DNA of 56,895 nucleotides. Origin: a virus (Duplodnaviria > Caudoviricetes). Under the pieces are notes generated by a model that was not told where the DNA came from, did not search any database, and saw only the letters and a program-made list of their open reading frames with translations. The translations under genes were made by a program, and so were the position numbers. Below, piece by piece: positions 1-19,634 of this stretch (position 1 is the stretch's first letter; every line of letters starts with the position of its first letter). The stretch covers positions 1 to 56,895 of IMG/VR virus record IMGVR_UViG_3300025400_000022. One strand, 5' to 3'.

Positions 1-231
1 ATCTACGTTCTGATGGACGATGAACAAGTGGATAAAATGGTCGGCTACCAGTACGAACACGTCATCACACTGGACAGCGCCAGCGAGTACGAGATGCTTT
101 GCGCGGTTGAGGAATGGTTTGAGGAGTCTTGCAGTCTGCGCTTCGTTCAGTCTGTCAGGAGCGCACTAGAGGGTGAAGACCCTAACAAGGGTTTCACCGT
201 TCTGATTGAACAGGGTTTCGGGGAAGACTAG
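1..231 (+). CDS. Hypothetical acidic early protein (5' partial)
   Basis: Frame 1 is open from base 1 (IYVLMDDEQ...) to TAG at 229-231, followed by GC-rich hairpins. Confidence 0.7.
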   Translation: MYVLMDDEQVDKMVGYQYEHVITLDSASEYEMLCAVEEWFEESCSLRFVQSVRSALEGEDPNKGFTVLIEQGFGED

Positions 232-327
232 GGGAGTGGGGTGGCTATCACAGCACCCCCTCACTGATACGCCGAGGGGGTGGGGTCACTTGACCCCGCC
301 CCCTTGAGGTATCCCCACTCTCTTTTT
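232..327 (+). terminator. Compound hairpin / intrinsic terminator
   Basis: Long stem gatac..gagggggtggggtca / tgaccccgcccccttg..gtatc (266-313); gagtgggg (234-241) is also complementary to ccccactc (313-320); then tcttttt. Confidence 0.6.
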
Positions 328-389
328 CGCGTGTGTGCACCCGTACGCGAATCGCGTGCAGGAATCGCGTATGCGAATCGCGTGCACGA
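327..389. repeat. TCGCGT/ACGCGA block, copy 1
   Basis: TCGCGT-gtgtgcacccgt-ACGCGA-A-TCGCGT..ATCGCGT..ATCGCGT. Confidence 0.9.
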
Positions 390-427
390 GATGACAATGG
401 CAATTTTACAAATAAAGTTGGGGAAAA

Positions 428-456
428 ATTATACCATAACGTCGGCCACAAGTCAA
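428..456 (-). promoter_or_regulatory. Antisense sigma70/SigA-type promoter
   Basis: Minus strand TTGACT-17 bp-TATAAT with TG extension; points into the CGCG block. Confidence 0.85.
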
Positions 457-467
457 GTCAATTCTAC

Positions 468-482
468 AGATAATGCCTATCT
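468..482. promoter_or_regulatory. Palindromic site AGATA-N5-TATCT, copy 1
   Basis: agata-atgcc-tatct between divergent -35 boxes; recurs at 1058, 1782, 2516. Confidence 0.75.
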
Positions 483-503
483 CAAAAAAAGATTGAAACC
501 GGC

Positions 504-532
504 TTGACTTTCTTCCCTGCACCTGCCATAAT
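504..532 (+). promoter_or_regulatory. Sigma70/SigA-type promoter
   Basis: TTGACT-17 bp-CATAAT with TG extension; followed by hairpin gggg-aaaag-cccc and RBS aaaggag. Confidence 0.85.
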
Positions 533-569
533 GGATACGTCGGGGAAAAGCCCCAACAAAGGAGATGAG

Positions 570-1001
570 ATGACCTACACCTACGAAACGCCTAAGGGCG
601 GAGTGTTCGAGAGCAACTATGCCCTCACAAAAGAACGTAGCGCCGACATTTGGTTCTGCGAAGGCGGTGGCATTGTAAACGCAATTGGAGACTACTACTA
701 TGGCAACGGTCGGGTGACTATCTACTGCTTGGGGGAGATGCGCCTAAACTTGGCAGACGGAACAGTCTGGCGAAGTGCTTGGGACTTGCCTAGCAACATC
801 ACTAACGACGAAGAACTAATGAACGTGTGGAGCGCCCCCGAAAACGACGTGGTGAACAACTGTTGGATAGAACTGTTCGACACCAGCGAGGGACAAGACG
901 TTGAGAACGAAGAGACCTACATCATTTGCGGGGACATTTGGGAAGCAATAGACGAAGCCCACGCCTACCTAGTGGCCACCTATCCAGAAGTTGAAGGGTA
1001 G
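570..1001 (+). CDS. Hypothetical acidic early protein
   Basis: ATG 570 after AAAGGAG; the ORF-track start at 504 is the promoter -35 box. Confidence 0.8.
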   Translation: MTYTYETPKGGVFESNYALTKERSADIWFCEGGGIVNAIGDYYYGNGRVTIYCLGEMRLNLADGTVWRSAWDLPSNITNDEELMNVWSAPENDVVNNCWIELFDTSEGQDVENEETYIICGDIWEAIDEAHAYLVATYPEVEG

Positions 1002-1012
1002 GTGGTGCAGGG

Positions 1013-1034
1013 TTCGCGTATACACACACGCGAA
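1013..1034. repeat. TCGCGT/ACGCGA block, copy 2 (single unit)
   Basis: tTCGCGT-atacacac-ACGCGAa. Confidence 0.85.
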
Positions 1035-1057
1035 GAATCTCGAGGTATCTAGAAAAA

Positions 1058-1112
1058 AGATAGGGGGTATCTACGAAAGTGATTTGACTTTTTTCCCTGC
1101 ACCTGTCATAAT
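1058..1112 (+). promoter_or_regulatory. AGATA-N5-TATCT site plus sigma70-type promoter
   Basis: Palindrome 1058-1072; TTGACT 1084-1089, 17 bp, CATAAT 1107-1112; nearly identical to the promoter at 504. Confidence 0.85.
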
Positions 1113-1152
1113 GGATACATACCGAAAAGCGGTATAACGAAAAGGAGAAACA

Positions 1153-1611
1153 ATGACCACAACCACTTACCCTGCTAAGGGAGTAATCACCTCTAGTTGC
1201 ACCTGCTACTACTGCCCTAGTTGCGAGATGACTTTCACGGACGACACCTATCCCGAAAACTGCGACTGCGGGACACCCTGCACACCTGCCTATGAGTCTT
1301 GCTCCGGCGAGTGCTGGGACTTCGCAACCGAAGACTTTGCCTACAACGCTTTTACTCCGTGGTGCTTGGCGAACGAGACCGACGAGTTCGCTATCTATGG
1401 TCGGCGTATGGGTTGGACTAACGGTAGCGGACACACGGGACGACTGACCGCGTTCAGGGAATTGCTGAACAACCTGACCCTGAACGGGGACTTCATTCTT
1501 CGCTGGGAGTTGAGCGAAGACAACAAGACCCTGACCGTCATTCGCTCTAGCCACGACGAAATGGGTGCGATGTTTGAGGTAGTGCCGTGGAATGAGGGAG
1601 ACGACGAGTAG
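1153..1611 (+). CDS. Hypothetical protein with Cys-rich (possible Zn-binding) N-terminus
   Basis: RBS AAAGGAG; CTCYYCPSC...CDCGTPC...CSGEC. Confidence 0.8.
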   Translation: MTTTTYPAKGVITSSCTCYYCPSCEMTFTDDTYPENCDCGTPCTPAYESCSGECWDFATEDFAYNAFTPWCLANETDEFAIYGRRMGWTNGSGHTGRLTAFRELLNNLTLNGDFILRWELSEDNKTLTVIRSSHDEMGAMFEVVPWNEGDDE

Positions 1612-1615
1612 GAGT

Positions 1616-1638
1616 AGGGTGGGGGGCGACCCCCACCT
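1616..1638 (+). terminator. GC-rich hairpin after ORF
   Basis: ggtggggg-gcga-cccccacc. Confidence 0.55.
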
Positions 1639-1650
1639 GAAACACCCCCT

Positions 1651-1714
1651 TCGCGTATGCCCGCATACACGCGAATCGCGTATCGCGTACACATACACGC
1701 GAACACGCACGCGA
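1651..1714. repeat. TCGCGT/ACGCGA block, copy 3
   Basis: Three TCGCGT and three ACGCGA separated by alternating purine-pyrimidine spacers. Confidence 0.9.
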
Positions 1715-1741
1715 GGAGATTTTACAAATAAAGTTGGGGAG

Positions 1742-1770
1742 ATTTTAGCACACGGGGCCACAAAAGTCAA
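1742..1770 (-). promoter_or_regulatory. Antisense sigma70-type promoter
   Basis: Minus strand TTGACT-17 bp-TAAAAT with TG extension. Confidence 0.8.
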
Positions 1771-1780
1771 GCATCAAAAG

Positions 1781-1846
1781 GAGATAGCCCCTATCTCAAA
1801 AATAGTTGGAAAACGATTTGACTTTTGCCCCGACCTATGGCATACT
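1781..1846 (+). promoter_or_regulatory. GAGATAG-N3-CTATCTC site plus sigma70-type promoter
   Basis: Palindrome 1781-1797; TTGACT 1818-1823, 17 bp, CATACT 1841-1846. Confidence 0.85.
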
Positions 1847-1894
1847 AGTTAGGTCGAGGAAACGCCGAGACAAACTACCGAAAGGATTACAACA

Positions 1895-2335
1895 ATGGAA
1901 CACGTCACTTACGGCACTGAGGTTGCCTCCGAGTTCACGCCCACTACCACCGCCGAGTTGGCGTTGGAAAACCGTGAGCGTGCAGTTGGGGTCAAGGAGC
2001 GTGCCATCACCGCTAAGGAGAATGACCTCTCCGAGCGTGAAGCATACCTCTCAAATGTCAAGGGTCAGATTATTGAGTTGGCTAAGTCCCTGATGGGTGA
2101 TGACGTTATTGTCGTTCAGCGTGAAGACTTTGATACTTTGGTTGATTTGGTGGAGACGGCTATCTCTAACTCCGAGGATAGCAAGGCGGCTATTGAAGAT
2201 TTGCAGTCTGAAATCTATGACCTGAAGCGGAACGCCGACAGCGTTGAGAGTAGCGCCGAAGATGCAAGTAGCAACCTTGAGAGTTCGCTTGCGGACTTGG
2301 AGAACGCCCTAGACAACCTGAAGGGTCTCGCTTAG
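1895..2335 (+). CDS. Acidic coiled-coil protein
   Basis: RBS GAAAGGA; heptad-like E/D/L/A/S-rich sequence. Confidence 0.8.
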   Translation: MEHVTYGTEVASEFTPTTTAELALENRERAVGVKERAITAKENDLSEREAYLSNVKGQIIELAKSLMGDDVIVVQREDFDTLVDLVETAISNSEDSKAAIEDLQSEIYDLKRNADSVESSAEDASSNLESSLADLENALDNLKGLA

Positions 2336-2336
2336 G

Positions 2337-2384
2337 CAACGGGTAGGGGGTTGGGCGCAAGCCCGACCCCCGATAACCCCGTTG
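2337..2384 (+). terminator. Nested hairpin with GCAA tetraloop
   Basis: caacggg..gggggttgggc-gcaa-gcccgaccccc..cccgttg. Confidence 0.6.
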
Positions 2385-2392
2385 GGGGCATT

Positions 2393-2441
2393 TCGCGTAT
2401 GTAGGCACGCGATTCGCGTATCGCGTACGTATGCACGCGAA
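2393..2441. repeat. TCGCGT/ACGCGA block, copy 4
   Basis: TCGCGT-atgtaggc-ACGCGA-T-TCGCGT-A-TCGCGT-acgtatgc-ACGCGA. Confidence 0.9.
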
Positions 2442-2475
2442 GCGACCCGAGGATTTTTAGAAAACGTATGGGGAA

Positions 2476-2504
2476 ATTATACCATAGGCCACACCAAAAG
2501 TCAA
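2476..2504 (-). promoter_or_regulatory. Antisense sigma70-type promoter
   Basis: Minus strand TTGACT-17 bp-TATAAT with TG extension. Confidence 0.85.
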
Positions 2505-2515
2505 GTATCAAAGGC

Positions 2516-2580
2516 AGATAGTCCCTATCTAAAAAAAAGATGCGTTTTGACTTGACAGCGACGCCGAGACCTGTCATAAT
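2516..2580 (+). promoter_or_regulatory. AGATA-N5-TATCT site plus ardC promoter
   Basis: Palindrome 2516-2530; TTGACA 2552-2557, 17 bp, CATAAT 2575-2580. Confidence 0.85.
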
Positions 2581-2625
2581 GGATACGTTCCGAAATGCGG
2601 AGCAACTAATCAAAGGAGCAAGCAA

Positions 2626-3516
2626 ATGAGCAAGACCGCTTACGAGGTAGTCGCCCAGACTATCATCAAGCAACTGGAAAACAACGTCGCACCGTGGCGC
2701 AAGGAATGGATAGCCTACGGATACAAGCCTAAGTCAATGAGCAGTGGCAAGACCTACAAGGGTATGAACTTTATGCTCTTGATGTTTGAGGCTATGGACA
2801 AGGGCTACGAAAGCCCGTGGTGGGGAACGTTCAAGCAGATTACCGAGCGTGGAGGCGTGGTCACGAAGGGCGAGAGGGGCACTCCCGTAGTCCTGTGGAA
2901 GCAGTTTGAGACCGAAAACGCTGACGGGGACAAGAAGAAGGCGGTGGTGATGCGCTACTTCACCGTGTTCAACGCCCAGCAAGCGACGTGGGAAGACGGG
3001 AAAGCGCCAGCCTACGATAAGCCCGTTGCCCGTGATGCCGTTGCAGTCATTGAGGGGGCGCAGAGCATTATGGACAACTACTTCGCCCGTGACAATGCAC
3101 CGAGCCTAGCCTTTGGTGGAAACCGAGCCTACTACTCACCTAGTCGAGACGGTATCCAACTTCCCCAGCAGTCCAACTTCGTGAGCGATAGTTCGTTCTA
3201 TGCAACGGCGTTTCACGAGATGGGTCACTCAACCGGTCACAAGTCACGCCTAAACCGTGACGGCGTCGTGGAAAACCACTACTTCGGTAGCGAACTCTAC
3301 AGCGAAGAGGAATTGGTGGCAGAGTTCACGAGTGCGTTTTTGTGCAGTGAAACCGGTGTTTTGCCCGAGACACTGGACAACAGCACCGCTTACATCAAGT
3401 CTTGGCTGAAGGTTCTGAAGAACGACCCGAAGATGCTAGTAAAGGCAGTGGGTCGGGCGCAGAAGGCTACGAACTTCATCACCGGCGCAGAGACGGAGAC
3501 GGTGGAAGCCGAGTAG
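2626..3516 (+). CDS. ardC: ArdC-family antirestriction protein (ssDNA-binding N-domain plus zincin-like domain)
   Basis: PWRKEW, Y.G.N..LL, WGTFKQ...GG.V.KGE.G, FTVFN.QQ, AYYSPS.D.I.LP, HEMGHSTGH.SRLNR, Y..EELVAE, YI.SW.K.LK.D. Confidence 0.92.
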   Translation: MSKTAYEVVAQTIIKQLENNVAPWRKEWIAYGYKPKSMSSGKTYKGMNFMLLMFEAMDKGYESPWWGTFKQITERGGVVTKGERGTPVVLWKQFETENADGDKKKAVVMRYFTVFNAQQATWEDGKAPAYDKPVARDAVAVIEGAQSIMDNYFARDNAPSLAFGGNRAYYSPSRDGIQLPQQSNFVSDSSFYATAFHEMGHSTGHKSRLNRDGVVENHYFGSELYSEEELVAEFTSAFLCSETGVLPETLDNSTAYIKSWLKVLKNDPKMLVKAVGRAQKATNFITGAETETVEAE

Positions 3517-3567
3517 TGGCAGGGGGTCGGGGCGAACGTGTGTTCGCTCCGGCTCCGCCATTTTTTT
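3517..3567 (+). terminator. Intrinsic terminator
   Basis: Long GC stem around gaac-gtgt-gttc followed by T7. Confidence 0.75.
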
Positions 3568-3622
3568 CGCGTGCGTGTATACGCGAATCGCGTAGGCGCG
3601 GGTACGCGAATCGCGTACGCGA
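3567..3622. repeat. TCGCGT/ACGCGA block, copy 5
   Basis: Three TCGCGT..ACGCGA units joined by single A. Confidence 0.9.
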
Positions 3623-3698
3623 GAGGATTTCTAAAGAAACTACGGGCGAAAGTAGCCAGTTTTTGAGAAAAAGATGGGGAAAAATTATCGCACGACTA

Positions 3699-3727
3699 AT
3701 TATAGCGTATGCGTGAGTGAAAGTCAA
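3699..3727 (-). promoter_or_regulatory. Antisense sigma70-type promoter
   Basis: Minus strand TTGACT-17 bp-TATAAT. Confidence 0.85.
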
Positions 3728-3786
3728 GAATAATTACGTGTCATACTGTAAGCCCCTCAGACGGGTTATTTATGGGAAGGTATCAG

Positions 3787-4077
3787 ATGACACAGAACTT
3801 GTATTTCGTGACGGCAGACGGGCTTATAGGCATCGCTGACGGGCTTTTGCTTGTGCGCAGTGACGAGGTGACTTGGACAGAGTTGCAGGAAGCCGTAGAG
3901 AAGCCTAATCCGAAGTCGCAGGTTATGCGACTGCTACAGCGTGACAAGGGTATTCGCCCAGACGCAGTTGCACTAACTAAGGCCACAGCGTTCACCACAC
4001 CAGAGGCGGCGCAGGAGTTCCGAGAAGACCTTGAAGAAAAAGGTTGGACTTGGCTTGACAAGGACACAAACCCCTGA
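3787..4077 (+). CDS. Hypothetical protein
   Basis: ATG after GGAAGG; upstream extended -10 TGTCATACT at 3739-3747. Confidence 0.7.
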   Translation: MTQNLYFVTADGLIGIADGLLLVRSDEVTWTELQEAVEKPNPKSQVMRLLQRDKGIRPDAVALTKATAFTTPEAAQEFREDLEEKGWTWLDKDTNP

Positions 4078-4083
4078 TACAAT
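4055..4083 (+). promoter_or_regulatory. Sigma70-type promoter
   Basis: TTGACA-17 bp-TACAAT; followed by AAAAG-loop hairpin 4088-4110. Confidence 0.85.
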
Positions 4084-4128
4084 GGTTGAGTACCGGAAAA
4101 GCCGGTGCTTTTATCAGAAGGGATTACC

Positions 4129-4515
4129 GTGGGAGACCGTGGAAACATCAAGTTAGTTAGTGAATACGGACAGCCGATTTACTTTTACACTCATTGGACT
4201 GCTTACCGACTGCCCGAAATTGTGGCGCAGGGGCTGGACAAGGGGCGTGACCGGTGGGGCGATGAGGACTACCTCAATCGTATCATCTTTCAGACGCTCC
4301 TCGGAGGCGACGAGAGCAACCTTTCTTACGGCATCAGTACCCGTGAGGCTGGCGACGCTTGGCGCTTGGTAGAAGTAGACCACGTAAAGGAAGAAGTTTC
4401 TATCTATGAGCGTGTCTACAGCGAAGACTTTGCGGACAGTCACTGGCGACCCGTCTATGAGCCTAAGTCGTTTCACGAGTTTGTCCTTGACTTTCTCCCC
4501 GTGGTAGCGGTATGA
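4129..4515 (+). CDS. Hypothetical phage protein (MGDRGNI..FYTHW)
   Basis: GTG after GAAGGGA, in frame with ORF-track 4105..4515. Confidence 0.8.
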   Translation: MGDRGNIKLVSEYGQPIYFYTHWTAYRLPEIVAQGLDKGRDRWGDEDYLNRIIFQTLLGGDESNLSYGISTREAGDAWRLVEVDHVKEEVSIYERVYSEDFADSHWRPVYEPKSFHEFVLDFLPVVAV

Positions 4516-4784
4516 TGAAGTTCGAGGATTGGTGGAACCAGTATCAGCCCCTAGATAATCATTTCCAATCTAGGGCATACTACTTTGTCAAGATGTTCGA
4601 GACCTACGGCGAGGAACTGGAGTTTGTTCAGGGTCAGCCCGTCGAGATGGTGTGGACGGAACTGGACGACGGAACCATTGTGAACGGCTACCACATTGTG
4701 AACAGAATGGGCTACTACATCACAGTCAAGCCGTGGAGCGAGGAAACTGTGGTCGAGGACGAAGAGTTGGAAGAATTGGACTAG
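4512..4784 (+). CDS. Hypothetical acidic protein
   Basis: ATGA overlap with upstream stop; acidic C-terminal tail. Confidence 0.8.
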   Translation: MMKFEDWWNQYQPLDNHFQSRAYYFVKMFETYGEELEFVQGQPVEMVWTELDDGTIVNGYHIVNRMGYYITVKPWSEETVVEDEELEELD

Positions 4785-4816
4785 GAGGTTGCCCCCGAAG
4801 TTTGGGGGCAATCTCC
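4784..4816 (+). terminator. GC-rich hairpin
   Basis: ggaggttgcccccgaa-g-tttgggggcaatctcc. Confidence 0.65.
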
Positions 4817-4821
4817 CCCTA

Positions 4822-4884
4822 TCGCGTGTGCGCATACGCGAAATCGCGTATCGCGTGGGCATGTACGCGAATCGCGTACGCGAA
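4822..4884. repeat. TCGCGT/ACGCGA block, copy 6
   Basis: Four TCGCGT and three ACGCGA. Confidence 0.9.
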
Positions 4885-4915
4885 GAGTTTTTCAAAAAAA
4901 AATGGGGAAAATGAT

Positions 4916-4944
4916 TTGACATTGACGTCGGCGTGTGTCATACT
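4916..4944 (+). promoter_or_regulatory. Sigma70-type promoter
   Basis: TTGACA-17 bp-CATACT with TG extension; AAACG-loop hairpin 4951-4969. Confidence 0.85.
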
Positions 4945-4990
4945 GTTTGGGTCGAGAAAACGTCTCGGCAATTTACCGAAAGGATTACCA

Positions 4991-5197
4991 ATGGCGACAG
5001 CCACTAAGAAAGTTGTAAGCACCGAGGTTCAGGATACTGAAGATGACAGCCCTACGTCGTACAGCGTGACGGTAATGGTTGAGTACCGGTTTGACGTAGA
5101 TGCCGACGGCGAAGCGGAAGCGGAAGCCGAGGGCTGGCGCTACGAAGACTACAAGGGTTTTGCATCAGTATACAGCATTGACGTGGAGGAGAACTAA
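4991..5197 (+). CDS. Small very acidic protein (MATATKK...)
   Basis: ATG after GAAAGGA; likely true start inside ORF-track 4652..5197. Confidence 0.8.
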   Translation: MATATKKVVSTEVQDTEDDSPTSYSVTVMVEYRFDVDADGEAEAEAEGWRYEDYKGFASVYSIDVEEN

Positions 5198-5343
5198 TGA
5201 CCAACTACACCACTATTGAGCAGTTAGTAGAGGCGGTGCAGAAAGCACTCCCGAATTGCGACATTGACCTTGACAACGAGGGTCAGGTCATCATTTACAC
5301 CAACTATTCATTCATTGACGGCGTTCTAAAGGAGAGCGAATAA
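5197..5343 (+). CDS. Small hypothetical protein (48 aa)
   Basis: TAATG coupling at both ends; RBS GGAGGAG. Confidence 0.7.
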   Translation: MTNYTTIEQLVEAVQKALPNCDIDLDNEGQVIIYTNYSFIDGVLKESE

Positions 5344-5513
5344 TGGCAAAAATGTATGTAGGCTTTGACGGCAACTATGGTAGCGCCGAGGATTACGACC
5401 TCTTTATCTTCGACACCGAGGATTTTAGCGAGGCGCAACTGCACCTTTTTGATGAAGACCCCGCCGAGTTTTACCTACGGGCGACGAGCGACGACTGGGA
5501 GGGCTTAGAGTGA
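5343..5513 (+). CDS. Small acidic hypothetical protein (56 aa)
   Basis: TAATG coupling; RBS AAAGGAG. Confidence 0.7.
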   Translation: MAKMYVGFDGNYGSAEDYDLFIFDTEDFSEAQLHLFDEDPAEFYLRATSDDWEGLE

Positions 5514-5674
5514 GGAGCGCAACCGAGGCGTCGAGCGCCCTTATCCTATACGCCGAGCGCAAGTTTCACGGCGAGGAGACGGAAGCCAACGAACTGCTGT
5601 ATTCTTTGCTAGTAGAGATGCTACAGTGGAACGTAGCAGTCACGGACAAAGTTTTCGATTTCTTTGACCACTGA
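5510..5674 (+). CDS. Small hypothetical protein (54 aa)
   Basis: GTGA overlap; RBS GGGAGG. Confidence 0.6.
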   Translation: MRSATEASSALILYAERKFHGEETEANELLYSLLVEMLQWNVAVTDKVFDFFDH

Positions 5675-5675
5675 C

Positions 5676-5704
5676 TTGACAAAGTAAAAAACCCCTGTTA
5701 TAAT
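5676..5704 (+). promoter_or_regulatory. Consensus sigma70-type promoter
   Basis: TTGACA-17 bp-TATAAT with TG extension; AAAAG-loop hairpin 5711-5729. Confidence 0.9.
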
Positions 5705-5746
5705 AGATGAGTACCGGAAAAGCCGGTGCAGAGACAAAGGAGCATA

Positions 5747-6226
5747 ATGCACGTATTACATTTTATCGCAGTAGAGGCTGACAACGCCGAAGACGCAATC
5801 TCTCAAGTAGACATTGCTTTGACGCACGATGACAACCCCGTTTTTCCGTGGAGCGACTGGGCAGAAATCGGGGGGCGCTGGGAGGACGAGGGCGAGGTTC
5901 ACTGCTACGCAGACGACCCCACAAAGTTTGAGGACTTTTTGGAGCGTGCCCGTCTCAACCGAGTGAATGAAATCAAGTTTCTGTTGAGCAACATTGACAC
6001 CGAGGCAATCATTGAAGAAGTGCGCAACTTTGATGGCCGTGATGCCGGACGCAGTCTTGATTTTTACCATCTCCGTCAGGCTATTGCCATTGCCGAGGGC
6101 AACGGAAAGCACGATGCCTACTTCTACGACCTGAAAGAATGGTGCGAAGACTTCAAGTATCTCCGTGAGCGCATGGAAACAGACCCCACTCGTCAATTCT
6201 TAGTCTTGGTAGATTTTCACCACTAG
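5747..6226 (+). CDS. Hypothetical phage protein (W..IGGRW ... VDFH)
   Basis: ATG after AAAGGAG. Confidence 0.8.
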   Translation: MHVLHFIAVEADNAEDAISQVDIALTHDDNPVFPWSDWAEIGGRWEDEGEVHCYADDPTKFEDFLERARLNRVNEIKFLLSNIDTEAIIEEVRNFDGRDAGRSLDFYHLRQAIAIAEGNGKHDAYFYDLKEWCEDFKYLRERMETDPTRQFLVLVDFHH

Positions 6227-6229
6227 GAC

Positions 6230-6258
6230 TTGACAAAGCAAAAAACCCGTGGTACAAT
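6230..6258 (+). promoter_or_regulatory. Sigma70-type promoter
   Basis: TTGACA-17 bp-TACAAT with TG extension; AAAAG-loop hairpin 6262-6284. Confidence 0.88.
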
Positions 6259-6303
6259 GGTTCATCACCGAAAAGCGGTGGTGACAGACAGAAAGGATAC
6301 AAA

Positions 6304-6522
6304 ATGGGAGAGCACCACGTTTACTTCGTAAGCATTACTTGCGACCACATGGTTCTAAACACTGTTGTCTACTACGACAGAACGCCCGACGACGACCGGC
6401 TGGAAGCGGACATTGAAGACGTTCTGCTGGAACTTGCATCACGAAAGATTTTTCAAGAATACGGTTTCAACCCCTACAACTGGGCTATTGACACCGACTA
6501 CACCTACGGAGGAGAACAATAA
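6304..6522 (+). CDS. Hypothetical protein
   Basis: RBS AGAAAGGA. Confidence 0.75.
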   Translation: MGEHHVYFVSITCDHMVLNTVVYYDRTPDDDRLEADIEDVLLELASRKIFQEYGFNPYNWAIDTDYTYGGEQ

Positions 6523-6689
6523 TGACTGTAAACTATGACACCGACGGGACGCCATACATGGAGGTCTCTTACACCTACACCGTAAGCGTTATCGCTGAAA
6601 ACGCTGATGAGGCGCTGATGTACGCTGACGGGCTTTTCAACGACCAGACGGGCGCAAACCCCAATGACTTTCACGTGGAGGTGCTGTAA
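6522..6689 (+). CDS. Small acidic hypothetical protein (55 aa)
   Basis: TAATG coupling at both ends; RBS GGAGGAG. Confidence 0.7.
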   Translation: MTVNYDTDGTPYMEVSYTYTVSVIAENADEALMYADGLFNDQTGANPNDFHVEVL

Positions 6690-6913
6690 TGAGTACCTAC
6701 ACGCACTATTTTGTGGTGGGCTACCACAAAGACCGTGGGTTCTTTTGCGACACCGACGTCTTGGAAGCACATTTTCCTGACGGCTGTATCTGGGATGAAG
6801 ACCTACAAGAGTATCTTCGTATCCCTGACCAGGGATTTAGGGAATACGACGCCGACCTTTATTCGGCGCTACTGCATTACATCCGCAAACTAAACGAAGA
6901 AGGAGGCTACTAA
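6689..6913 (+). CDS. Hypothetical protein
   Basis: TAATG coupling; RBS GGAGG. Confidence 0.75.
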   Translation: MSTYTHYFVVGYHKDRGFFCDTDVLEAHFPDGCIWDEDLQEYLRIPDQGFREYDADLYSALLHYIRKLNEEGGY

Positions 6914-7110
6914 TGAGTAAGTGGATTATCAAGGACTGGGCGGGCAACCGACTGTGGACAGAGTTCGGGAGCGACGACCCGAACCTATCGTTCAACAGTT
7001 TTGAGGAAGCGTGGGACTTTATCTACGTCGCAAAGCCCGAACCAGAAGAAGACAGCCCAGACTGGGTTGATGGCTGGTACGACGACTACTTCGTGGAGGA
7101 GTCAGAATGA
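6913..7110 (+). CDS. Small acidic, Trp-rich hypothetical protein
   Basis: TAATG coupling; RBS AGGAGG. Confidence 0.75.
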   Translation: MSKWIIKDWAGNRLWTEFGSDDPNLSFNSFEEAWDFIYVAKPEPEEDSPDWVDGWYDDYFVEESE

Positions 7111-7166
7111 TGAGCGACGGCTCAGAGTTTGTAGGTGTTTGTGACCTGTGTGACGAATACTTCTAA

Positions 7167-7278
7167 GTAGTGCCCTAGTCTCGGCTAGGTAGTCTATCCA
7201 AAACCCCCTGTAGTGCCCCTGTATTGCCCTGTAGTGCCCGTATTATCCAAACCGGATAGACTGCCTAGCCAGTGCCCC
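7167..7278 (+). repeat. 17-bp inverted repeat enclosing tandem (GT)AGTGCCC repeats
   Basis: ggctaggtagtctatcc 7183-7199 / ggatagactgcctagcc 7254-7270; AGTGCCC at 7169, 7212, 7233, 7271 and ATTGCCC at 7223. Confidence 0.8.
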
Positions 7279-7299
7279 AAAATGTCTCAAATCAAAGCC

Positions 7300-7357
7300 T
7301 CGCGTGTGTATACGTATCGCGTACGCGAATCGCGTATATATATCGCGTATACGCGAA
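7300..7357. repeat. TCGCGT/ACGCGA block, copy 7
   Basis: Four TCGCGT and two ACGCGA with (TA)n and (GT)n spacers. Confidence 0.9.
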
Positions 7358-7387
7358 GGGCCGGTTCTTTGGAAAAATGTCTGGGGT

Positions 7388-7470
7388 CTGGCAGTTTTTC
7401 AAAAAAATGTGGGGAAAAATTATTCTGTGTGGCCCCTGGCAGTTTTTGACCCAAATGTGGGGAAAAATTA
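7388..7470. repeat. Tandem duplicated TTTTT..TGTGGGGAAAAATTA box
   Basis: ctggcagttttt-caaaa-aaatgtggggaaaaatta and ctggcagttttt-gaccc-aaatgtggggaaaaatta. Confidence 0.8.
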
Positions 7471-7533
7471 CGCTTTTGGGGCCGGCCTTATTACTTGTGG
7501 TTTCGGCCACATTTGGTACGTTATCATACTAAT

Positions 7534-7575
7534 AGTATACCATAAATTGACATTCATGTCAAATATTGGTACGAT
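7534..7575. promoter_or_regulatory. Overlapping divergent promoters around TTGACA-TTCA-TGTCAA
   Basis: Minus: TTGACA (7562-7557), 17 bp, TATACT (7539-7534). Plus: TTGACA (7547-7552), 17 bp, TACGAT (7570-7575). Both have a TG extension. Confidence 0.75.
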
Positions 7576-7676
7576 AACTGGGGGTTATGCGGGTATGGGT
7601 ACCCTATACGCGCGGGAATGTGCGTTTAGACGGGCGTATTGACATGGTTTTTTATGGTTTTTTATGGTTCCCATCG

Positions 7677-7955
7677 CTACTCATTCCACTTGCCTTTATT
7701 ATCAAGGTCCCGCTCCGTCAGGCTATTTCCCCATGCGTTCAGAAACGTATCAATCTGAGCCTCTAGGCGTTCAATATCCTTCGTTCCATCAACTTCAGTG
7801 TTCAACTGCTCACCTGTCTCTGGGTTTATTCCACTCTTAGTCATTGTCTCGTTGTATAAGTCTACTAAGTAGTTCTGTAGGTCTTCTATTGAGTTGCCTG
7901 AATAAGCCCCGGTTGCTTCCTCTTCTTGGTTGCCCCCCTCAAAAAAATTACTCAT
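7677..7955 (-). CDS. Hypothetical protein
   Basis: Last ORF of a tightly packed minus-strand operon. Confidence 0.7.
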   Translation of the reverse strand: MSNFFEGGNQEEEATGAYSGNSIEDLQNYLVDLYNETMTKSGINPETGEQLNTEVDGTKDIERLEAQIDTFLNAWGNSLTERDLDNKGKWNE

Positions 7956-8187
7956 CAGGATAACCCCACAAAAGGTTCACGATGGCTTCTTCTTCTTCGG
8001 TCATCTCAGGGTAATTGGGGGCAATAATAGCCACGGCTTGCTCAATGCGTTCTTCTAGGCTGGCATCTGATGGCTTTGGCTTGCCTTCGAGATACTCAAC
8101 ACGTCGTACCGTCTCTACTAATACTTCAGAGAGGCTTAGAAGGCGTTGTGCTAGGTCTAGGTCAAACTCGCTGGGCTGGTCACTCAC
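7948..8187 (-). CDS. Hypothetical protein
   Basis: Packed ORF with RBS GAAGGA. Confidence 0.7.
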   Translation of the reverse strand: MSDQPSEFDLDLAQRLLSLSEVLVETVRRVEYLEGKPKPSDASLEERIEQAVAIIAPNYPEMTEEEEAIVNLLWGYPDE

Positions 8188-8188
8188 G

Positions 8189-8644
8189 TTAGTTTGCTTC
8201 CTTCCAGTAGTTGCGCCAACGCTCAGGGTAGGGCTTCCAGTCTTCCTTTGGTTGCCCCTCTAATTCTGCAATGCGTTGCTTTAGCACCATAACGTCTGAA
8301 AGCAGTTGCTCGATGTTGGTTTCAGCGTATGCCAAGTCTTCGGCTGTTTGGATACCAAACTGACGTACTTCTTCCAGTTGGCGCTCGAGCCCGTCTTCCT
8401 TTACAAAAGGCTTGAGAGGTTTGTCGGTGACCTGTGTGCCGATTGTGTGAGTTGTAAAGTCATAACGGGGGCGAGTATCCTGCTCAAAGTTGCTGTGGAT
8501 TTGCTCGTCAATGTGCTGTAGGCCACGACGATAGCCCATCCAATACATCTTGTCTTCGGTGGTTTTGGCAATCTCGTAATACGCTAACGCCGTTTGGTGC
8601 GCCCGATTCAAAATCTCAGTGACCCTGCTGTGAAGGACTGTCAT
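8189..8644 (-). CDS. Hypothetical protein with C-terminal coiled coil
   Basis: ATGA overlap with upstream gene; RBS GAGGA. Confidence 0.7.
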   Translation of the reverse strand: MTVLHSRVTEILNRAHQTALAYYEIAKTTEDKMYWMGYRRGLQHIDEQIHSNFEQDTRPRYDFTTHTIGTQVTDKPLKPFVKEDGLERQLEEVRQFGIQTAEDLAYAETNIEQLLSDVMVLKQRIAELEGQPKEDWKPYPERWRNYWKEAN

Positions 8645-9100: not shown

Positions 9101-9334
9101 TTAGTTGTCGCCACGCTTCTTGAACGGCGTTAGGCCGCTCGTAAAGGCGTAGAGAAGGGCGTAGATGAACGTGGCCTGCCAGAAGCCCATAGGTCGGAAC
9201 TGGGGCGCCCAGCGATGAATGTCGCCCGCCAAAAGCATCGTCACCAGTCCGCCCACCAATGCGGCGAGAGGCCACATCAGAAAACTGAAGATAGCAAACG
9301 TCAGGTTGCTAGTAGTCTTGAACTTTACCTGCAT
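9101..9334 (-). CDS. Small membrane protein
   Basis: Two hydrophobic segments, GFWQA motif, TAATG coupling. Confidence 0.7.
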   Translation of the reverse strand: MQVKFKTTSNLTFAIFSFLMWPLAALVGGLVTMLLAGDIHRWAPQFRPMGFWQATFIYALLYAFTSGLTPFKKRGDN

Positions 9335-9603
9335 TAGTTATCCTTGTCGAGCACCGCTACGATGCCGGCAACTGGGACCTGAACGTACTTGACGCCGGCA
9401 ATCTCAACTGCGTATGCCAAACCGTGCTTGAAGACAACACTGTCGCCCTCACTGATGCCCTCAACGTCGGGGCCAACTGAGATAACCTCAGCAATGTCGG
9501 GCAGTGGTACTGCGCCCTGTGGAATTACGAGACCCGTCTCTGTGGTCTTTTCTTTGTGCTCCATGCGAAGAATCACATTGTCGCTAGTGGCCTTGAAAGC
9601 CAT
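9334..9603 (-). CDS. groES: GroES/Cpn10 co-chaperonin
   Basis: DNVIL..E.E.TT.TGLVIP..A..EVISVGP.V.G...GD.V.F....E..G.KY..V....IVAVL. Confidence 0.9.
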   Translation of the reverse strand: MAFKATSDNVILRMEHKEKTTETGLVIPQGAVPLPDIAEVISVGPDVEGISEGDSVVFKHGLAYAVEIAGVKYVQVPVAGIVAVLDKDN

Positions 9604-10414: not shown

Positions 10415-10582
10415 TTAGAAGGTACTTTCCAGTACCCGCAGCACTTCACAGGGCCACGTTTGAATCAAGGTGCCATTGGGACCCTTACAGCCGGCGCAGT
10501 AATTAACGTCACCAGCCCTGCCAATGTTCTGAAACACGGGCTGGTGCTTCTCTCGTAGGGCTTTGATTTCGGTGGGGGTCAT
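10415..10582 (-). CDS. Small Zn-finger-like protein (MTPTEIKALREKH..CxxC..WPC)
   Basis: ATGA overlap; paralogous to the N-terminal half of the next gene. Confidence 0.7.
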   Translation of the reverse strand: MTPTEIKALREKHQPVFQNIGRAGDVNYCAGCKGPNGTLIQTWPCEVLRVLESTF

Positions 10583-10899
10583 AGTTTCTCTCCGCACTTG
10601 GGGCAGTAGGTGAAAACAGTCCATTGGTATTTAGCATTGGCTCTACTGAGCCATAGGTGTTCGCACTCAACTTTAGTTTTTAGGTCGTTAAACTTTAGGT
10701 TTTCGGTAGCGTCCAGTACCTTATAACCGTCATCGTATCCACGTTCGTAATTTATTGCCGCTTGAAAGTTTGCTTGGTCTACTTCGTCCAGCACCTTGAT
10801 TACGTCGCAGGGGTACCTTTCATACAAACAGTAAGAACATTGATTCTTTTCGTCCTGGCTGTGCTTCTCTCGTAGGGCTTGGCGTTCGTCGGGGGTCAT
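10579..10899 (-). CDS. Protein with two Zn-finger-like modules (ALREKH..CxxC..YPC; CEH..YCPKCGEKL)
   Basis: ATGA overlaps; Cys/His motifs. Confidence 0.75.
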   Translation of the reverse strand: MTPDERQALREKHSQDEKNQCSYCLYERYPCDVIKVLDEVDQANFQAAINYERGYDDGYKVLDATENLKFNDLKTKVECEHLWLSRANAKYQWTVFTYCPKCGEKL

Positions 10900-11006
10900 A
10901 GTTTCTCTCCGCACTTGGGGCAGAAGTCTTTTAGACCGCTAACCGATGCTTGAGTTTCGTTGTTTGCTAAAGAAGCAAACACACCCATTTCTGGCAACAA
11001 CGTCAT
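10896..11006 (-). CDS. Short ORF ending FCPKCGEKL (possible remnant)
   Basis: Shares its 3' end sequence with the gene downstream. Confidence 0.45.
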   Translation of the reverse strand: MTLLPEMGVFASLANNETQASVSGLKDFCPKCGEKL

Positions 11007-18351: not shown

Positions 18352-18373
18352 AGAACATTTGTTCTGATACACT
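18352..18373 (+). promoter_or_regulatory. LexA/SOS box abutting the extended -10 of recA
   Basis: AGAAC-ATTT-GTTCT (GAAC-N4-GTTC) at 18352-18365; TGATACACT at 18365-18373. Confidence 0.75.
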
Positions 18374-19417: not shown

Positions 19418-19634
19418 GAAGAACGCACAAAAAAACAATCAAGTTCGAGTTGCGGAAGCAATCAAGATGTGGTATATTGGACATACGTACGGACCGAGTT
19501 ACCGAGACATTTCCCGCATTACGGGCATTTCTCTTGGCACCGTGTTCAACGTGTGCAAGGAATTAAAAGAAACAAATGTAATTGAATTAAACGAAAAGGT
19601 GGCAAGGTCCATCAAACTGAAAGGAACAGAGTGA
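19410..19634 (+). CDS. Stand-alone LexA-like N-terminal DNA-binding domain
   Basis: I......YGPSYRDI....GIS..TV....KEL.E...IE.....ARSI matches the LexA wHTH pattern; 74 aa, no peptidase domain. Confidence 0.72.
   Translation: MSEKNAQKNNQVRVAEAIKMWYIGHTYGPSYRDISRITGISLGTVFNVCKELKETNVIELNEKVARSIKLKGTE

What the first reader, a model, noticed from the sequence alone, without database searches (positions are those of the whole stretch)
232..7575. Seven-copy composite intergenic element organising the early region (candidate undescribed regulatory system)
Seen: the same ordered parts recur between unrelated genes. The order is hairpin, TCGCGT/ACGCGA block (327, 1013, 1651, 2393, 3567, 4822, 7300), TTTT..TGGGGAAAA box, leftward consensus promoter (5 copies), AGATA-N5-TATCT (4 copies), rightward promoter, +1 hairpin, RBS. 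Filler sequence differs between copies while motifs and spacings are kept, which indicates selection rather than recent duplication. Established: plasmid leading regions put ard genes behind repeated conserved upstream elements, and ardC is one of the genes here. Inference: a modular control unit for first-expressed anti-defence/host-takeover genes, which may also serve as a crossover point for cassette shuffling. I do not recognise this architecture from described phages.
Basis: partly seen in the sequence, partly recalled or inferred. Interest (0 to 1): 0.92.

Follow-up and report, generated by a model that had tools for sequence, protein, structure and literature searches.

The report
Modular early-gene control cassettes, actinophage
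An uncultured freshwater phage of actinobacteria separates its small early genes with a repeated, ordered set of control signals (terminator, a purged-elsewhere DNA motif array, A/T box, promoters, RNA hairpin) that related phages keep while swapping the genes in between.

Summary
Seven TCGCGT/ACGCGA arrays lie in intergenic regions (IGs) between 327 and 7356, in the stated order with hairpin, A/T..TGGGGAAA box, leftward promoter, AGATA-N5-TATCT, rightward promoter, 5' hairpin and RBS. Each motif is far above chance. Not every copy has every part.

The window is a fragment of an uncultured myovirus-like phage of Actinobacteria (two WhiB-like genes, Rpf-like domain) seen in freshwater metagenomes. 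Relatives keep the architecture while most genes differ. The core ATCGCG persists, with lineage-specific forms.

Public metagenome contigs show a cassette deletion, an insertion and many homology breaks at these elements.

The hexamer occurs only in these arrays in four phage records and nowhere in about 144 kb elsewhere. It is strand-biased and is followed by degenerate alternating purine-pyrimidine tracts.

Best reading: PeSL-like promoter/terminator cassettes (a concept described for T4-type phages) with an added operator-like array for an unidentified sequence-specific factor. They double as recombination junctions. No trans factor was identified, and no RNA run was available.

Verdict: a new variant of a known kind; moderately high interest.

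The parts
231..383 (.). IG1: double GC-rich hairpin (231-316), then TCGCGT/ACGCGA array 1 (327-383; 5 exact hexamers plus one degenerate)
   Evidence: (fold -59.5 kcal/mol)
403..456 (-). IG1: A/T..TGGGGAAA box (403-433) overlapping leftward promoter TTGACT-17-TATAAT (-35 at 456-451, -10 at 433-428)
468..569 (+). IG1: AGATA-N5-TATCT (468-482), A tract, rightward promoter 504-532, 5' hairpin (538-558), SD; gene 570-1001
1014..1152 (+). IG2 minimal form: single TCGCGT-N8-ACGCGA unit (1014-1033, an 18-nt perfect Pu/Py alternation), GGTATCT 1044 and 1066 with AGATA-N5-TATCT 1058-1072, promoter 1084-1112, 5' hairpin 1117-1137; gene 1153-1611
1617..1714 (.). IG3: hairpin 1617-1638 and array 3 (1651-1714, 6 hexamers)
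1719..1770 (-). IG3: box 1719-1747 and leftward promoter (1770-1742)
1782..1894 (+). IG3: palindrome 1782-1796, promoter 1818-1846, 5' hairpin 1852-1872, SD; gene 1895-2335
2337..2440 (.). IG4: hairpin 2337-2384 and array 4 (2393-2440, 5 hexamers spaced 14, 7, 7, 14)
2453..2504 (-). IG4: box 2453-2481 and leftward promoter (2504-2476)
2516..2625 (+). IG4: palindrome 2516-2530, promoter 2552-2580, 5' hairpin 2585-2605, SD; gene ardC 2626-3516
3515..3622 (.). IG5: canonical terminator (3523-3556 plus T7) with a GAAC-N4-GTTC box in its apex (3534-3545), then array 5 (3567-3622, 6 hexamers)
3659..3771 (.). IG5: box 3659-3687, leftward promoter (3727-3699), extended -10 rightward promoter (TGTCATACT at 3739-3747); gene 3772/3787-4077
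4055..4128 (+). Promoter-only unit: TTGACA-17-TACAAT 4055-4083, 5' hairpin 4089-4109; gene 4129-4515
4784..4990 (+). IG7: hairpin 4784-4816, array 7 (4822-4883, 7 hexamers), box 4887-4915 abutting promoter 4916-4944, 5' hairpin 4950-4970; gene 4991-5197
5676..5746 (+). Promoter-only unit: TTGACA-17-TATAAT 5676-5704, 5' hairpin 5710-5730; gene 5747-6226
6230..6303 (+). Promoter-only unit: 6230-6258, 5' hairpin 6263-6283; gene 6304-6522
7182..7575 (.). IG10, end of the rightward block: long inverted repeat enclosing GTAGTGCCC repeats (7182-7272), array (7300-7356, 6 hexamers), two boxes (7394-7422, 7442-7470), overlapping divergent promoters (leftward 7562-7534, rightward 7547-7575)

Best explanation
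The region is the early-gene block of an uncultured, freshwater, myovirus-like phage of Actinobacteria. Its small, mostly ORFan genes are organised as autonomous expression cassettes bounded by a repeated composite intergenic element.

Shown by sequence analysis:
- The element has two separable halves. The 3' boundary half is a GC-rich hairpin followed by an array of 1-7 TCGCGT/ACGCGA hexamers (core ATCGCG) and an A/T-rich box. The 5' expression half is a host-type sigma-70/sigmaA-like promoter with TG extension, a 5'-terminal hairpin with a conserved AAANG loop, and a strong SD.
- In this lineage a near-consensus leftward promoter and a TATCT/AGATA operator-like repeat are inserted between the two halves.
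- The repeated parts are places where genomes of this group differ by cassette insertion, deletion and replacement.

Inferred:
- The hairpin terminates and insulates.
- The 5' hairpin stabilises or marks the mRNA 5' end.
- The box acts like an UP element or bending site.
- The ATCGCG-type array is an operator array for a sequence-specific, direction-sensitive DNA-binding factor that controls or blocks transcription of the whole early block. It would work like a global early shut-off or a stoperator. Its alternating purine-pyrimidine spacers supply deformable, possibly Z-prone, DNA.
- Exchange occurs by homologous recombination between the repeats, helped by the phage's own RecA, ERF and YqaJ-like genes.

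The factor itself is not identified.
For: Host and phage type: tail sheath, tape measure, fibres and major head protein; two WhiB-like proteins, an Rpf-like transglycosylase domain, RecA, ERF, SSB and a weak YqaJ match; 24 of 24 listed runs are freshwater metagenomes.

Promoter density: 21 against 6.0 +/- 2.7 in 1-8000; 17 against 6 strong ones inside against outside 1-7700.

Element homology and footprinting.

Conservation with gene turnover:
- L016 and L017 (ArdC 72% identical) and L137/L138 (82%) carry arrays in every terminator-bearing IG.
- Only 11 of 17 window early ORFs have a homologue in L137/L138 and 7 of 17 in L016.
- 12 of 18 L137 ORFs have no match anywhere in the window.
- The gene at 1895-2335 is replaced in L137 by an unrelated ORF between homologous IGs.

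Population variants:
- Joint 526->1107, skipping 580 bp, between two 86%-identical promoters (repeat family D12).
- 564 nt inserted at 2379-2385 in 3 of 4 runs.
- Contig homology ends listed at 357, 1036-1038, 1696, 1709, 2410, 3593, 4882 and 7311, inside or at the edge of the arrays.
- A 99.75%-identical block 4698-7100 shared with L135 drops to 73% after 7183.

Operator-like properties of the array:
- The hexamer occurs only in the early IGs in 4 of 4 records (37, 6, 52 and 16 sites) and 0 times in about 144 kb elsewhere. The whole-window count equals chance (37 against 33.6).
- The form changes by lineage but is uniform within a genome: ATCGCGT in the window lineage and L016; ATCGCGC(G/A) direct repeats 20-21 bp apart in L141/L154; the palindrome ATCGCGC-NN-GCGCGAT in L019/L022.
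- Phasing to the core promoter is fixed in relatives: the TCGCGTACGCGA palindrome lies 11 nt upstream of -35 in L016, and the L019 palindrome lies about 14 nt upstream of -10.
- ATCGCG is biased to the coding strand: 15:1 in the window, 22:7 in L137, 50:1 in L141.

5' hairpin: 24 distinct copies from four loci, 88.1% of cells paired against 56.2% shuffled, covariation score 0.78 against 0.20, 0 of 500 shuffles as high.
Against: - No transcription data: no RNA run was listed, so promoters, terminators and timing are all predictions.
- No cognate DNA-binding protein was found. The only clear wHTH in the window (19410-19634) more plausibly targets the GAAC-N4-GTTC boxes.
- Spacing between inverted hexamers is variable (0-18 nt), which a rigid dimeric repressor would not tolerate.
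- The spacers are degenerate RYRY with no base preference and are even-length in 46 of 54 units. This points to a structural DNA property rather than base readout.
- Arrays accompany terminator hairpins rather than promoters: three promoters have none. The function may therefore concern termination or insulation rather than initiation.
- Terminator-like sites are not enriched by the canonical scan.
- The 24 hairpin windows were chosen by RNAfold, which inflates the share of paired cells.
- Contig joints come from short-read assemblies of mixed populations and could include chimeras. The short-sided joints (21-32 nt) should be disregarded.
Confidence: 0.6

Rival explanations
1. The arrays are protein-independent structural DNA elements. 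They would be CGCG-capped alternating purine-pyrimidine tracts, prone to Z-DNA and rich in pause-type YG steps. They would act as supercoil-responsive insulators or backup pause/termination zones between strongly transcribed units, and would incidentally be recombination-prone.
For: There are 13 alternating runs of at least 11 nt in 1-7600 against 3.4 simulated, and 6 of at least 14 nt against 0.45. Five of them are exactly 18 nt, one per IG2, IG3, IG4, IG5 and IG7. The rest of the genome is depleted (14 against 25.8). T->A spacers are even in 46 of 54 unique units and 28 of 54 units alternate perfectly. The logo shows R/Y alternation with A about equal to G and C about equal to T. The arrays sit directly after hairpins, where read-through would need stopping, and homology breaks pile up there.
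Against: A purely structural element would not need the invariant flank T-CGCG-T: 37 of 40 CGCG inside 1-7600 have it, while GCGCGT/ACGCGC occur 0 times inside against 22 outside. It would not need to be purged from about 144 kb elsewhere. It would not be strand-biased. It would not change concertedly between lineages. In L141 the second site (ATCGCGCA) has only a 6-nt alternating run. Z-DNA formation cannot be tested with these tools.
Confidence: 0.2
2. The functional products are small leftward RNAs. Each near-consensus leftward promoter would transcribe box, array and the reverse of the terminator hairpin, giving a family of about 110-350-nt structured ncRNAs (decoy, antisense to the upstream 3' UTR, or insulator by convergent transcription).
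For: There are five leftward promoters matching 10-11 of 12 consensus positions, four with TG extension. Four are conserved in L137 (3220, 3921, 5292, 5956), where they score higher than the rightward ones. The -35 is invariant in the four-IG alignment. The IG1 leftward RNA folds at -83.7 kcal/mol, z = -4.4. A leftward promoter also faces the terminal array in L017 (4235).
Against: Internal IGs of L016, L017 and L047 carry arrays but no leftward promoter, so the arrays do not depend on leftward transcription. There is no Rfam match. Much of the fold energy comes from the terminator hairpins. No expression data exist.
Confidence: 0.1
3. The inverted TCGCGT...ACGCGA units are sites for a dedicated site-specific recombinase. 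This would be an integron-attC-like cassette system, with conserved inverted cores and a variable centre.
For: The cassette organisation fits, as do conserved inverted cores with variable spacers and junctions in the arrays.
Against: No recombinase or integrase domain appeared among the 50 distinct ORFs scanned, though about 35% of the genome is missing. One clear deletion joint lies in the promoters with 12 nt of shared homology, not in the arrays, which fits homologous recombination. L141-type sites are direct repeats, not inverted.
Confidence: 0.05
4. The element is a selfish or recently amplified repeat (MITE-like) with no function of its own.
For: It is repeated, has inverted repeats, and is associated with rearrangements.
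Against: Motifs are kept while filler diverges to about 66% column identity. The element is conserved over lineages whose ArdC is only 61-72% identical. Order and phasing to promoters are fixed. It is absent from 27 of 27 cellular-genome pattern hits when these are examined for clustering.
Confidence: 0.05

Closest known systems
PeSLs (promoter-early stem-loops) of T4-type phages (PMC2839356, abstract and section 13 read; PMC4122927, abstract read)
   Same: A small composite intergenic cassette: stem-loop terminator, A/T-rich stretch, consensus host-type early promoter and SD. It is repeated many times, placed in front of ORFans in plastic early regions, and is the site of indels and replacements between relatives by recombination between copies.
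   Different: Unrelated phage group and host phylum, and no sequence homology. Here the stem-loop is separate from the promoter. The element also carries an ATCGCG-type hexamer array that is purged from the rest of the genome, a conserved box, a second operator-like repeat (TATCT), divergent leftward promoters and a covarying 5' RNA hairpin. PeSL mini-circles were not looked for.
Stoperators of cluster A mycobacteriophages (L5-type repressor) (PMC9283540, abstract and introduction passages read)
   Same: An actinophage. Many copies of a short asymmetric site lie in short intergenic spaces and at promoters. Orientation correlates with transcription direction. The proposed role is silencing of initiation and elongation.
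   Different: Stoperators are single 13-mers spread over the whole genome and bound by a known monomeric repressor. Here there are 6-7-mers in arrays of 1-7 in both orientations, confined to the early block, with no repressor identified and no evidence of lysogeny.
Frpo/ssi single-strand promoters of plasmid leading regions (PMC11541004, passages read)
   Same: Repeated promoter elements in front of first-expressed anti-defence genes, including ard genes.
   Different: Frpo works as a folded ssDNA stem carrying -35 and -10. The IG1 promoter region shows no significant ssDNA fold (z = +0.65), and the phage presumably delivers dsDNA.
REP/BIME mosaic elements of enterobacteria, omega-protein heptad arrays of pSM19035, phiC31 conserved inverted repeats (all recalled from memory, no call)
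   Same: Extragenic mosaics of short inverted units after 3' ends (BIME). Arrays of 7-bp units in mixed orientation upstream of several promoters, bound cooperatively by one small repressor (omega). A repressor site repeated through an actinophage early region (phiC31).
   Different: No sequence relation was tested or expected. These are resemblances of design only. The search for phiC31 CIR papers returned nothing relevant.

Membership tests
PeSL-type regulatory cassette (functional class) | Strong host sigma-70-like early promoter in each copy | tested here: met
   Nine rightward promoters scoring 9-12 of 12, eight with TG extension; function itself was not assayed.
PeSL-type regulatory cassette (functional class) | Stable stem-loop acting as terminator or attenuator in the same intergenic unit | tested here: inconclusive
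   Strong hairpins in IG1, IG3, IG4, IG5, IG7 and IG10 (-21.7 to -59.5 kcal/mol), but only 1 passes the canonical hairpin-plus-T-tract scan. Three promoter units have no hairpin.
PeSL-type regulatory cassette (functional class) | Sits upstream of ORFans in a plastic region and marks indel/replacement junctions between relatives | tested here: met
   Early ORFs have no family above threshold except ArdC and one PHROG of unknown function. Gene replacement and cassette indels are seen at the elements.
PeSL-type regulatory cassette (descent) | Belongs to T4-like phages / shares sequence with described PeSLs | tested here: not met
   No DNA match (8 kb, near mode) and no major-head-protein match in 50,697 phage records. 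Actinobacterial host markers. PeSL sequences themselves were not compared.
Frpo/ssi single-strand promoter | ssDNA folds into a long stem that presents -35 and -10 as duplex | tested here: not met
   DNA fold of 415-545: -8.6 kcal/mol, z = +0.65, 146 of 200 shuffles fold as well; only the two -35 hexamers pair.
Frpo/ssi single-strand promoter | Sequence similarity to the known Frpo/ssi sequences | not tested
   No Frpo sequence was available from a tool. Rfam gave nothing at E <= 1 except one sub-threshold sRNA hit.
Stoperator-type repressor regulon | Asymmetric site repeated in intergenic spaces with orientation tied to transcription | tested here: met
   ATCGCG on the coding strand against its complement: 15:1 (window), 22:7, 16:3, 5:1, 50:1, 12:0 in six loci, but 15:24 in L019 and L022.
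Stoperator-type repressor regulon | Cognate phage repressor that binds the site | not testable with these tools
   No binder identified. The wHTH at 19410-19634 is LexA-N-terminal-like (Foldseek E about 3e-3, TM 0.74-0.76) and has its own likely target.
Stoperator-type repressor regulon | Sites distributed over the whole genome | tested here: not met
   All sites lie in the early block in 4 of 4 records.
Z-DNA-prone alternating Pu/Py tract | Uninterrupted alternating purine-pyrimidine run of about 12 bp or more containing CG steps | tested here: met
   Five 18-nt, one 17-nt and further 11-13-nt runs lie in the arrays. Actual B-Z transition is not testable here.
Any Rfam RNA family (5' hairpin, leftward RNAs) | Match reaching a family's gathering score | tested here: not met
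   One hit at 18.9 bits against gathering score 39, on a terminator hairpin.

The most novel reading that the evidence does not exclude
The ATCGCG-capped alternating purine-pyrimidine arrays are a previously undescribed kind of directional boundary element. On this reading a phage- or host-encoded factor reads the invariant, genome-purged hexamer, while the degenerate RY tract between hexamers switches conformation with transcription-driven supercoiling. Each array would then insulate its cassette, shut the early block off on cue, and present a preferred substrate to the phage's own RecA/ERF machinery. Gene expression control and cassette shuffling of anti-defence ORFans would be built into one element. 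In the window lineage, promoter-driven leftward ncRNAs would add a further layer.
Probability: 0.2. Interest if true: 0.8.

Novelty: new variant of a known kind. Interest (0 to 1): 0.62.

Why it matters
- The finding extends the PeSL idea, promoter/terminator cassettes that both express and shuffle ORFan early genes, from T4-like coliphages to an unrelated, uncultured lineage of freshwater actinophages. It comes with direct population-level evidence of cassette gain and loss.
- It defines three cis elements that can be tested and are not described in the libraries I searched: a hexamer array that the phages purge from the rest of their genomes, a conserved A/T box, and a covarying 5' RNA hairpin with an AAANG loop.
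- The cassettes mark a pool of about 17 or more small early genes per genome beside ardC. These are natural candidates for host-takeover or anti-defence functions.
- The promoter, hairpin and SD modules could be useful expression parts for low-GC Actinobacteria.

Tried and rejected
- Near-identity DNA search of 1-8000 and a tblastn of the major head protein against 50,697 phage records found nothing. No cultured relative or annotation could be used.
- Rfam at E <= 1 gave one sub-threshold hit. No tRNA genes were found.
- The first array pattern scanned over IMG/VR gave 7 loci, of which 6 were single chance hits inside genes and 1 (L013) was a true relative.
- The box pattern scan gave 59 loci. 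Only L013 was related; four others passed my hexamer-count filter but showed no clustering.
- The array pattern in one-genome-per-species bacterial contigs gave 27 single hits in high-GC genomes with no clustering. No host or prophage copy was found.
- An RNA-level test was not possible: no RNA holder was listed among 24 runs. I laid four DNA runs instead. Parts without cover there are not used as evidence.
- I considered the 74-aa wHTH (19410-19634) as the array binder. It is conserved in 6 of 8 relatives' records searched with an almost invariant recognition helix. It resembles the LexA N-terminal domain (all E > 1e-3), and a GAAC-N4-GTTC box sits before its own operon. I therefore do not assign it to the arrays.
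- I also asked whether the wHTH could be a Z-alpha domain. ADAR1 Z-alpha appears at rank 15 with 12% identity. By eye, against residues recalled from memory, the Z-alpha signature residues are absent. Rejected.
- Frpo-like ssDNA promoter: rejected.
- A sigma-54 reading of TGGCAG-TTTTT, CodY/AmtR/RamA/RamB/ClgR-like readings of the boxes, and a second promoter inside the box were considered from memory and dropped. Spacing or key bases did not fit, and none was tested by a tool.
- The literature search for the hexamer as a phage operator gave 27 papers; the 8 listed were unrelated by title and abstract. The search for phiC31 conserved inverted repeats gave nothing relevant.
- Supplementary files of papers were not consulted. 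The PeSL sequence lists and Frpo sequences that may be there could bear on the membership tests.
- L138 and L141 records could not be searched as whole records ('not held'). The 69-kb relative was only seen over 16.7 kb.

Full report
WHAT THE WINDOW IS

The 56,895-bp window is a whole IMG/VR virus record, classed as linear and about 65% complete. It encodes a tail sheath, tape measure, collagen-like fibres and a major head protein. It also encodes a DnaB-like helicase, a replication initiator, RecA, ERF, SSB and Cpn10, with a weak YqaJ match.

It carries two WhiB-like proteins and an Rpf-like transglycosylase domain. By established knowledge of WhiB distribution, these point to an actinobacterial host. 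All 24 listed runs that hold the first 8 kb are labelled freshwater metagenomes. No cultured phage record matched, by near-identity DNA for 1-8000 or by tblastn for the head protein.

Genes run rightward from 1 to 7165. After that a block of mostly leftward genes begins.

- The 13-mer palindrome ACGCGA-A-TCGCGT with up to 1 mismatch gives 15 matches against 0.06 expected.
- The A/T..KGGGGARA box has 7 distinct copies against 0.10 expected.
- AGATA-N5-TATCT has 4 copies against 0.00 expected.
- Sigma-70-like promoters number 21 against 6.0 +/- 2.7 in 1-8000. Of the strong ones, 17 of 23 lie in the first 7.7 kb.
- The leftward promoters are at 456, 1770, 2504, 3727 and 7562.
- Three paralogous IGs plus the L137 orthologue of IG4 align over their whole length. 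Motifs are invariant and filler is variable, so this is selection and not fresh duplication.

Corrections to the finding:
- The copies are not uniform.
- The bare TGGGGAAAA 9-mer with one mismatch is not enriched on its own.
- Only one hairpin is a canonical terminator. The others are strong but lack a T tract.

ANATOMY

The element falls into two halves that can occur apart.

- The boundary half is hairpin, array and box. It follows a stop codon.
- The expression half is promoter, 5' hairpin and SD.
- The expression half occurs alone three times (about 4055, 5676, 6230).
- In the window's internal IGs the array always follows a stop codon and a hairpin (in IG2 the array unit itself is the only hairpin). 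In L016, too, the one promoter-only IG read has neither array nor hairpin.
- Every array begins with TCGCGT on the coding strand.
- Neighbouring hexamers are typically 7 nt apart (A->T, T->T), or 6, 8, 14, 16 or 18 nt apart (T->A).
- The AGATA palindrome is part of a larger TATCT repeat. In IG2 and in L137, GGTATCT copies recur about 21-22 nt apart, with the last one 11 nt from -35.

RELATIVES

Searches used ArdC as a probe, DNA patterns, and an alignment of the small protein at 5343-5513. They found a group of related uncultured phages. All of them lack GATC and AGCT entirely, as the window does.

- L137/L138 (ArdC 82%) have the window-type element in 12 or more IGs. These include boxes, AGATA palindromes and four strong leftward promoters.
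- L016, L047 and L144 (ArdC about 72%) have TCGCGT arrays, a homologous box and a TCGCGTACGCGA palindrome exactly 11 nt upstream of TTGACA. They have a different 5' hairpin and no internal leftward promoters.
- L017 is similar and uses the AAAAG-loop hairpin.
- L141/L154 keep the layout but use ATCGCGC(G/A) as direct repeats 20-21 bp apart.
- L019/L022 use the palindrome ATCGCGC-NN-GCGCGAT about 14 nt upstream of the -10, with the box inverted.

The core ATCGCG is therefore ancient in the group. Its extension and arrangement are lineage-specific and uniform within each genome.

GENES ARE SWAPPED, ELEMENTS KEPT

- Of 17 window early ORFs, 11 have a homologue in L137/L138 and 7 in L016. Two of the L016 matches lie outside its early block.
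- Of 18 L137 ORFs, 12 have no match anywhere in the window. Nine of these lie upstream of where the window begins, so only three are informative about swapping.
- Between the homologues of 1153-1611 and ardC, the window has the gene 1895-2335, whereas L137 has an unrelated ORF. The flanking IGs are homologous up to 1914 and again from 2322.
- The left part of window IG1 (258-357) and the stretch from 1028 onward are contiguous in L137. Relative to L137 the window therefore holds an extra cassette, with the junction inside the array.
- Identity to L135 is 99.75% over 4698-7100 and 73% beyond 7183.

In public metagenome contigs:
- One joint removes 527-1106, between the two 86%-identical promoters. 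It has 199 nt on the shorter side and 12 nt of shared sequence.
- Three of four runs carry 564 extra nucleotides at 2379-2385.
- Another joint removes 6687-6910, almost exactly the ORF 6689-6913.
- Contigs stop resembling the window at 357, 1036-1038, 1696, 1709, 2410, 3593, 4882 and 7311, in or at the edge of the arrays.

These are assemblies of mixed populations, so I rely only on the long-sided joints. The phage's RecA, ERF and YqaJ-like genes offer a mechanism. That link is an inference.

WHAT THE ARRAYS ARE

Four properties argue for specific recognition.

1. The hexamer is confined to the early IGs in all four records examined whole: 37, 6, 52 and 16 sites, and none in about 144 kb elsewhere. 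The window's total equals the dinucleotide expectation, so the motif has been purged elsewhere and concentrated here. Order-3 Markov expectation for the window's other 49 kb is about 9.
2. Of the 40 CGCG in 1-7600, 37 have the T...T flank.
3. ATCGCG is strongly biased to the coding strand in six of eight loci.
4. The form changes concertedly by lineage and is phased to -35 or -10 in two lineages.

Two properties argue for a structural component.

1. The spacers between inverted hexamers vary from 0 to 18 nt, are even in 46 of 54 unique units, and alternate perfectly in 28 of 54.
2. The logo after TCGCGT is RYRYRY with no base preference.

Five 18-nt perfect alternations occur, one each in IG2, IG3, IG4, IG5 and IG7.

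I read this as an operator-like array with deformable spacers. I give the purely structural reading 0.2.

THE 5' HAIRPIN

In 21 of 24 distinct copies from the window, L137, L017 and L154, the loop starts 12-13 nt after the -10 hexamer, so the stem starts at about +1. The loop is AAANG, with A9 and A11 invariant. Seven stem pairs all show double-sided changes. 88.1% of cells are paired against 56.2% in shuffles. Covariation is 0.78 against 0.20, and at most 0.17 when the partner is slid.

The copies were picked by RNAfold, which biases the share of paired cells but not the fixed position or the loop. A 5'-terminal stem-loop as an mRNA stabiliser is established knowledge recalled from memory. 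The conserved loop suggests that a factor may read it. This is inference.

LEFTWARD PROMOTERS

They are as good as or better than the rightward ones and are conserved in L137. They would transcribe box, array and the reverse of the hairpin; the IG1 product folds with z = -4.4. They are absent from internal IGs of three other lineages. They are therefore an add-on of this lineage and not the reason for the arrays.

CANDIDATE TRANS FACTORS

No early ORF has a DNA-binding family match. The 74-aa protein after recA models confidently (pLDDT 90.3). It resembles the LexA DNA-binding domain and is conserved across lineages.

A GAAC-N4-GTTC box lies before its operon (18353). Another lies in the apex of the IG5 terminator (3534) and, as read, in several L137 and L141 terminator hairpins. 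GAAC-N4-GTTC occurs 5 times in the window against 1.13 expected. This looks like a separate, SOS-type circuit.

COMPARISON AND VERDICT

Functionally the closest described thing is the PeSL of T4-type phages. The array adds a layer most like actinophage stoperators or heptad operator arrays. Frpo-type promoters are excluded by the fold test.

I found no description of the motif (title and abstract listings only) and no RNA family match.

The finding is real and conserved. Its evolutionary role is supported by independent population data. Its regulatory mechanism remains inferred.

Noticed in passing
whole window; also G001-G003, L133-L152: GATC and AGCT are completely absent from the 56.9-kb window and from almost all related loci. 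Several 6-bp palindromes (for example AGGCCT, AGTACT, ATCGAT, CGGCCG, CTGCAG, GATATC) are absent from 7601-56895. This is strong restriction-site avoidance. L136 and L153, which share one early protein, do contain GATC and AGCT.
   Followed up: partly
window 18353-18364, 3534-3545; 18398-19634: A GAAC-N4-GTTC (SOS/Cheo-type) box lies just upstream of a recA gene. That gene is followed, overlapping by 8 nt, by a 74-aa LexA-N-terminal-like winged-helix protein with no cleavage domain. The same box type sits in the apex of the IG5 terminator and of several terminators in L137 and L141.
   Followed up: partly
window 7182-7272: A 15-nt-arm inverted repeat encloses three or four CTGTAGTGCCC-like repeats at the junction of the rightward and leftward gene blocks. 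It is conserved in L013/G001 and is 86% identical in L137. It could be iterons or another protein-binding site.
   Followed up: no
window about 7590-7660; L016 about 8430-8500; L017 about 4250-4330; L019 about 4100-4240 (reverse strand): A non-coding stretch beginning GGTACC..TATACGCGCG and continuing to GGGCGT..CATG recurs after the last box in four lineages. In the window it is followed by a tandem GGTTTTTTAT repeat. Function unknown.
   Followed up: no
L016 380-420 and 3530-3560; L137 about 3740-3770: Some terminator hairpins in relatives are built from TTATCCACA / TGTGGATAA sequences, which are DnaA-box-like (identification recalled from memory). The window itself was not searched for the motif.
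   Followed up: no
window 4698-7183 vs L135: A 2.4-kb block is 99.75% identical to a contig whose continuation is only about 73% identical. This indicates a very recent exchange of the right half of the early block between two otherwise diverged phages.
   Followed up: partly
window 10415-10926: Two adjacent leftward ORFs (10415-10582, 10579-10899) have identical 20-nt upstream sequences and appear to be a tandem duplication. L013 matches this stretch in overlapping pieces.
   Followed up: no
window 9334-9603: The phage encodes a Cpn10/GroES-like co-chaperonin, conserved at 37-69% identity in eight of the thirteen related loci examined.
   Followed up: no
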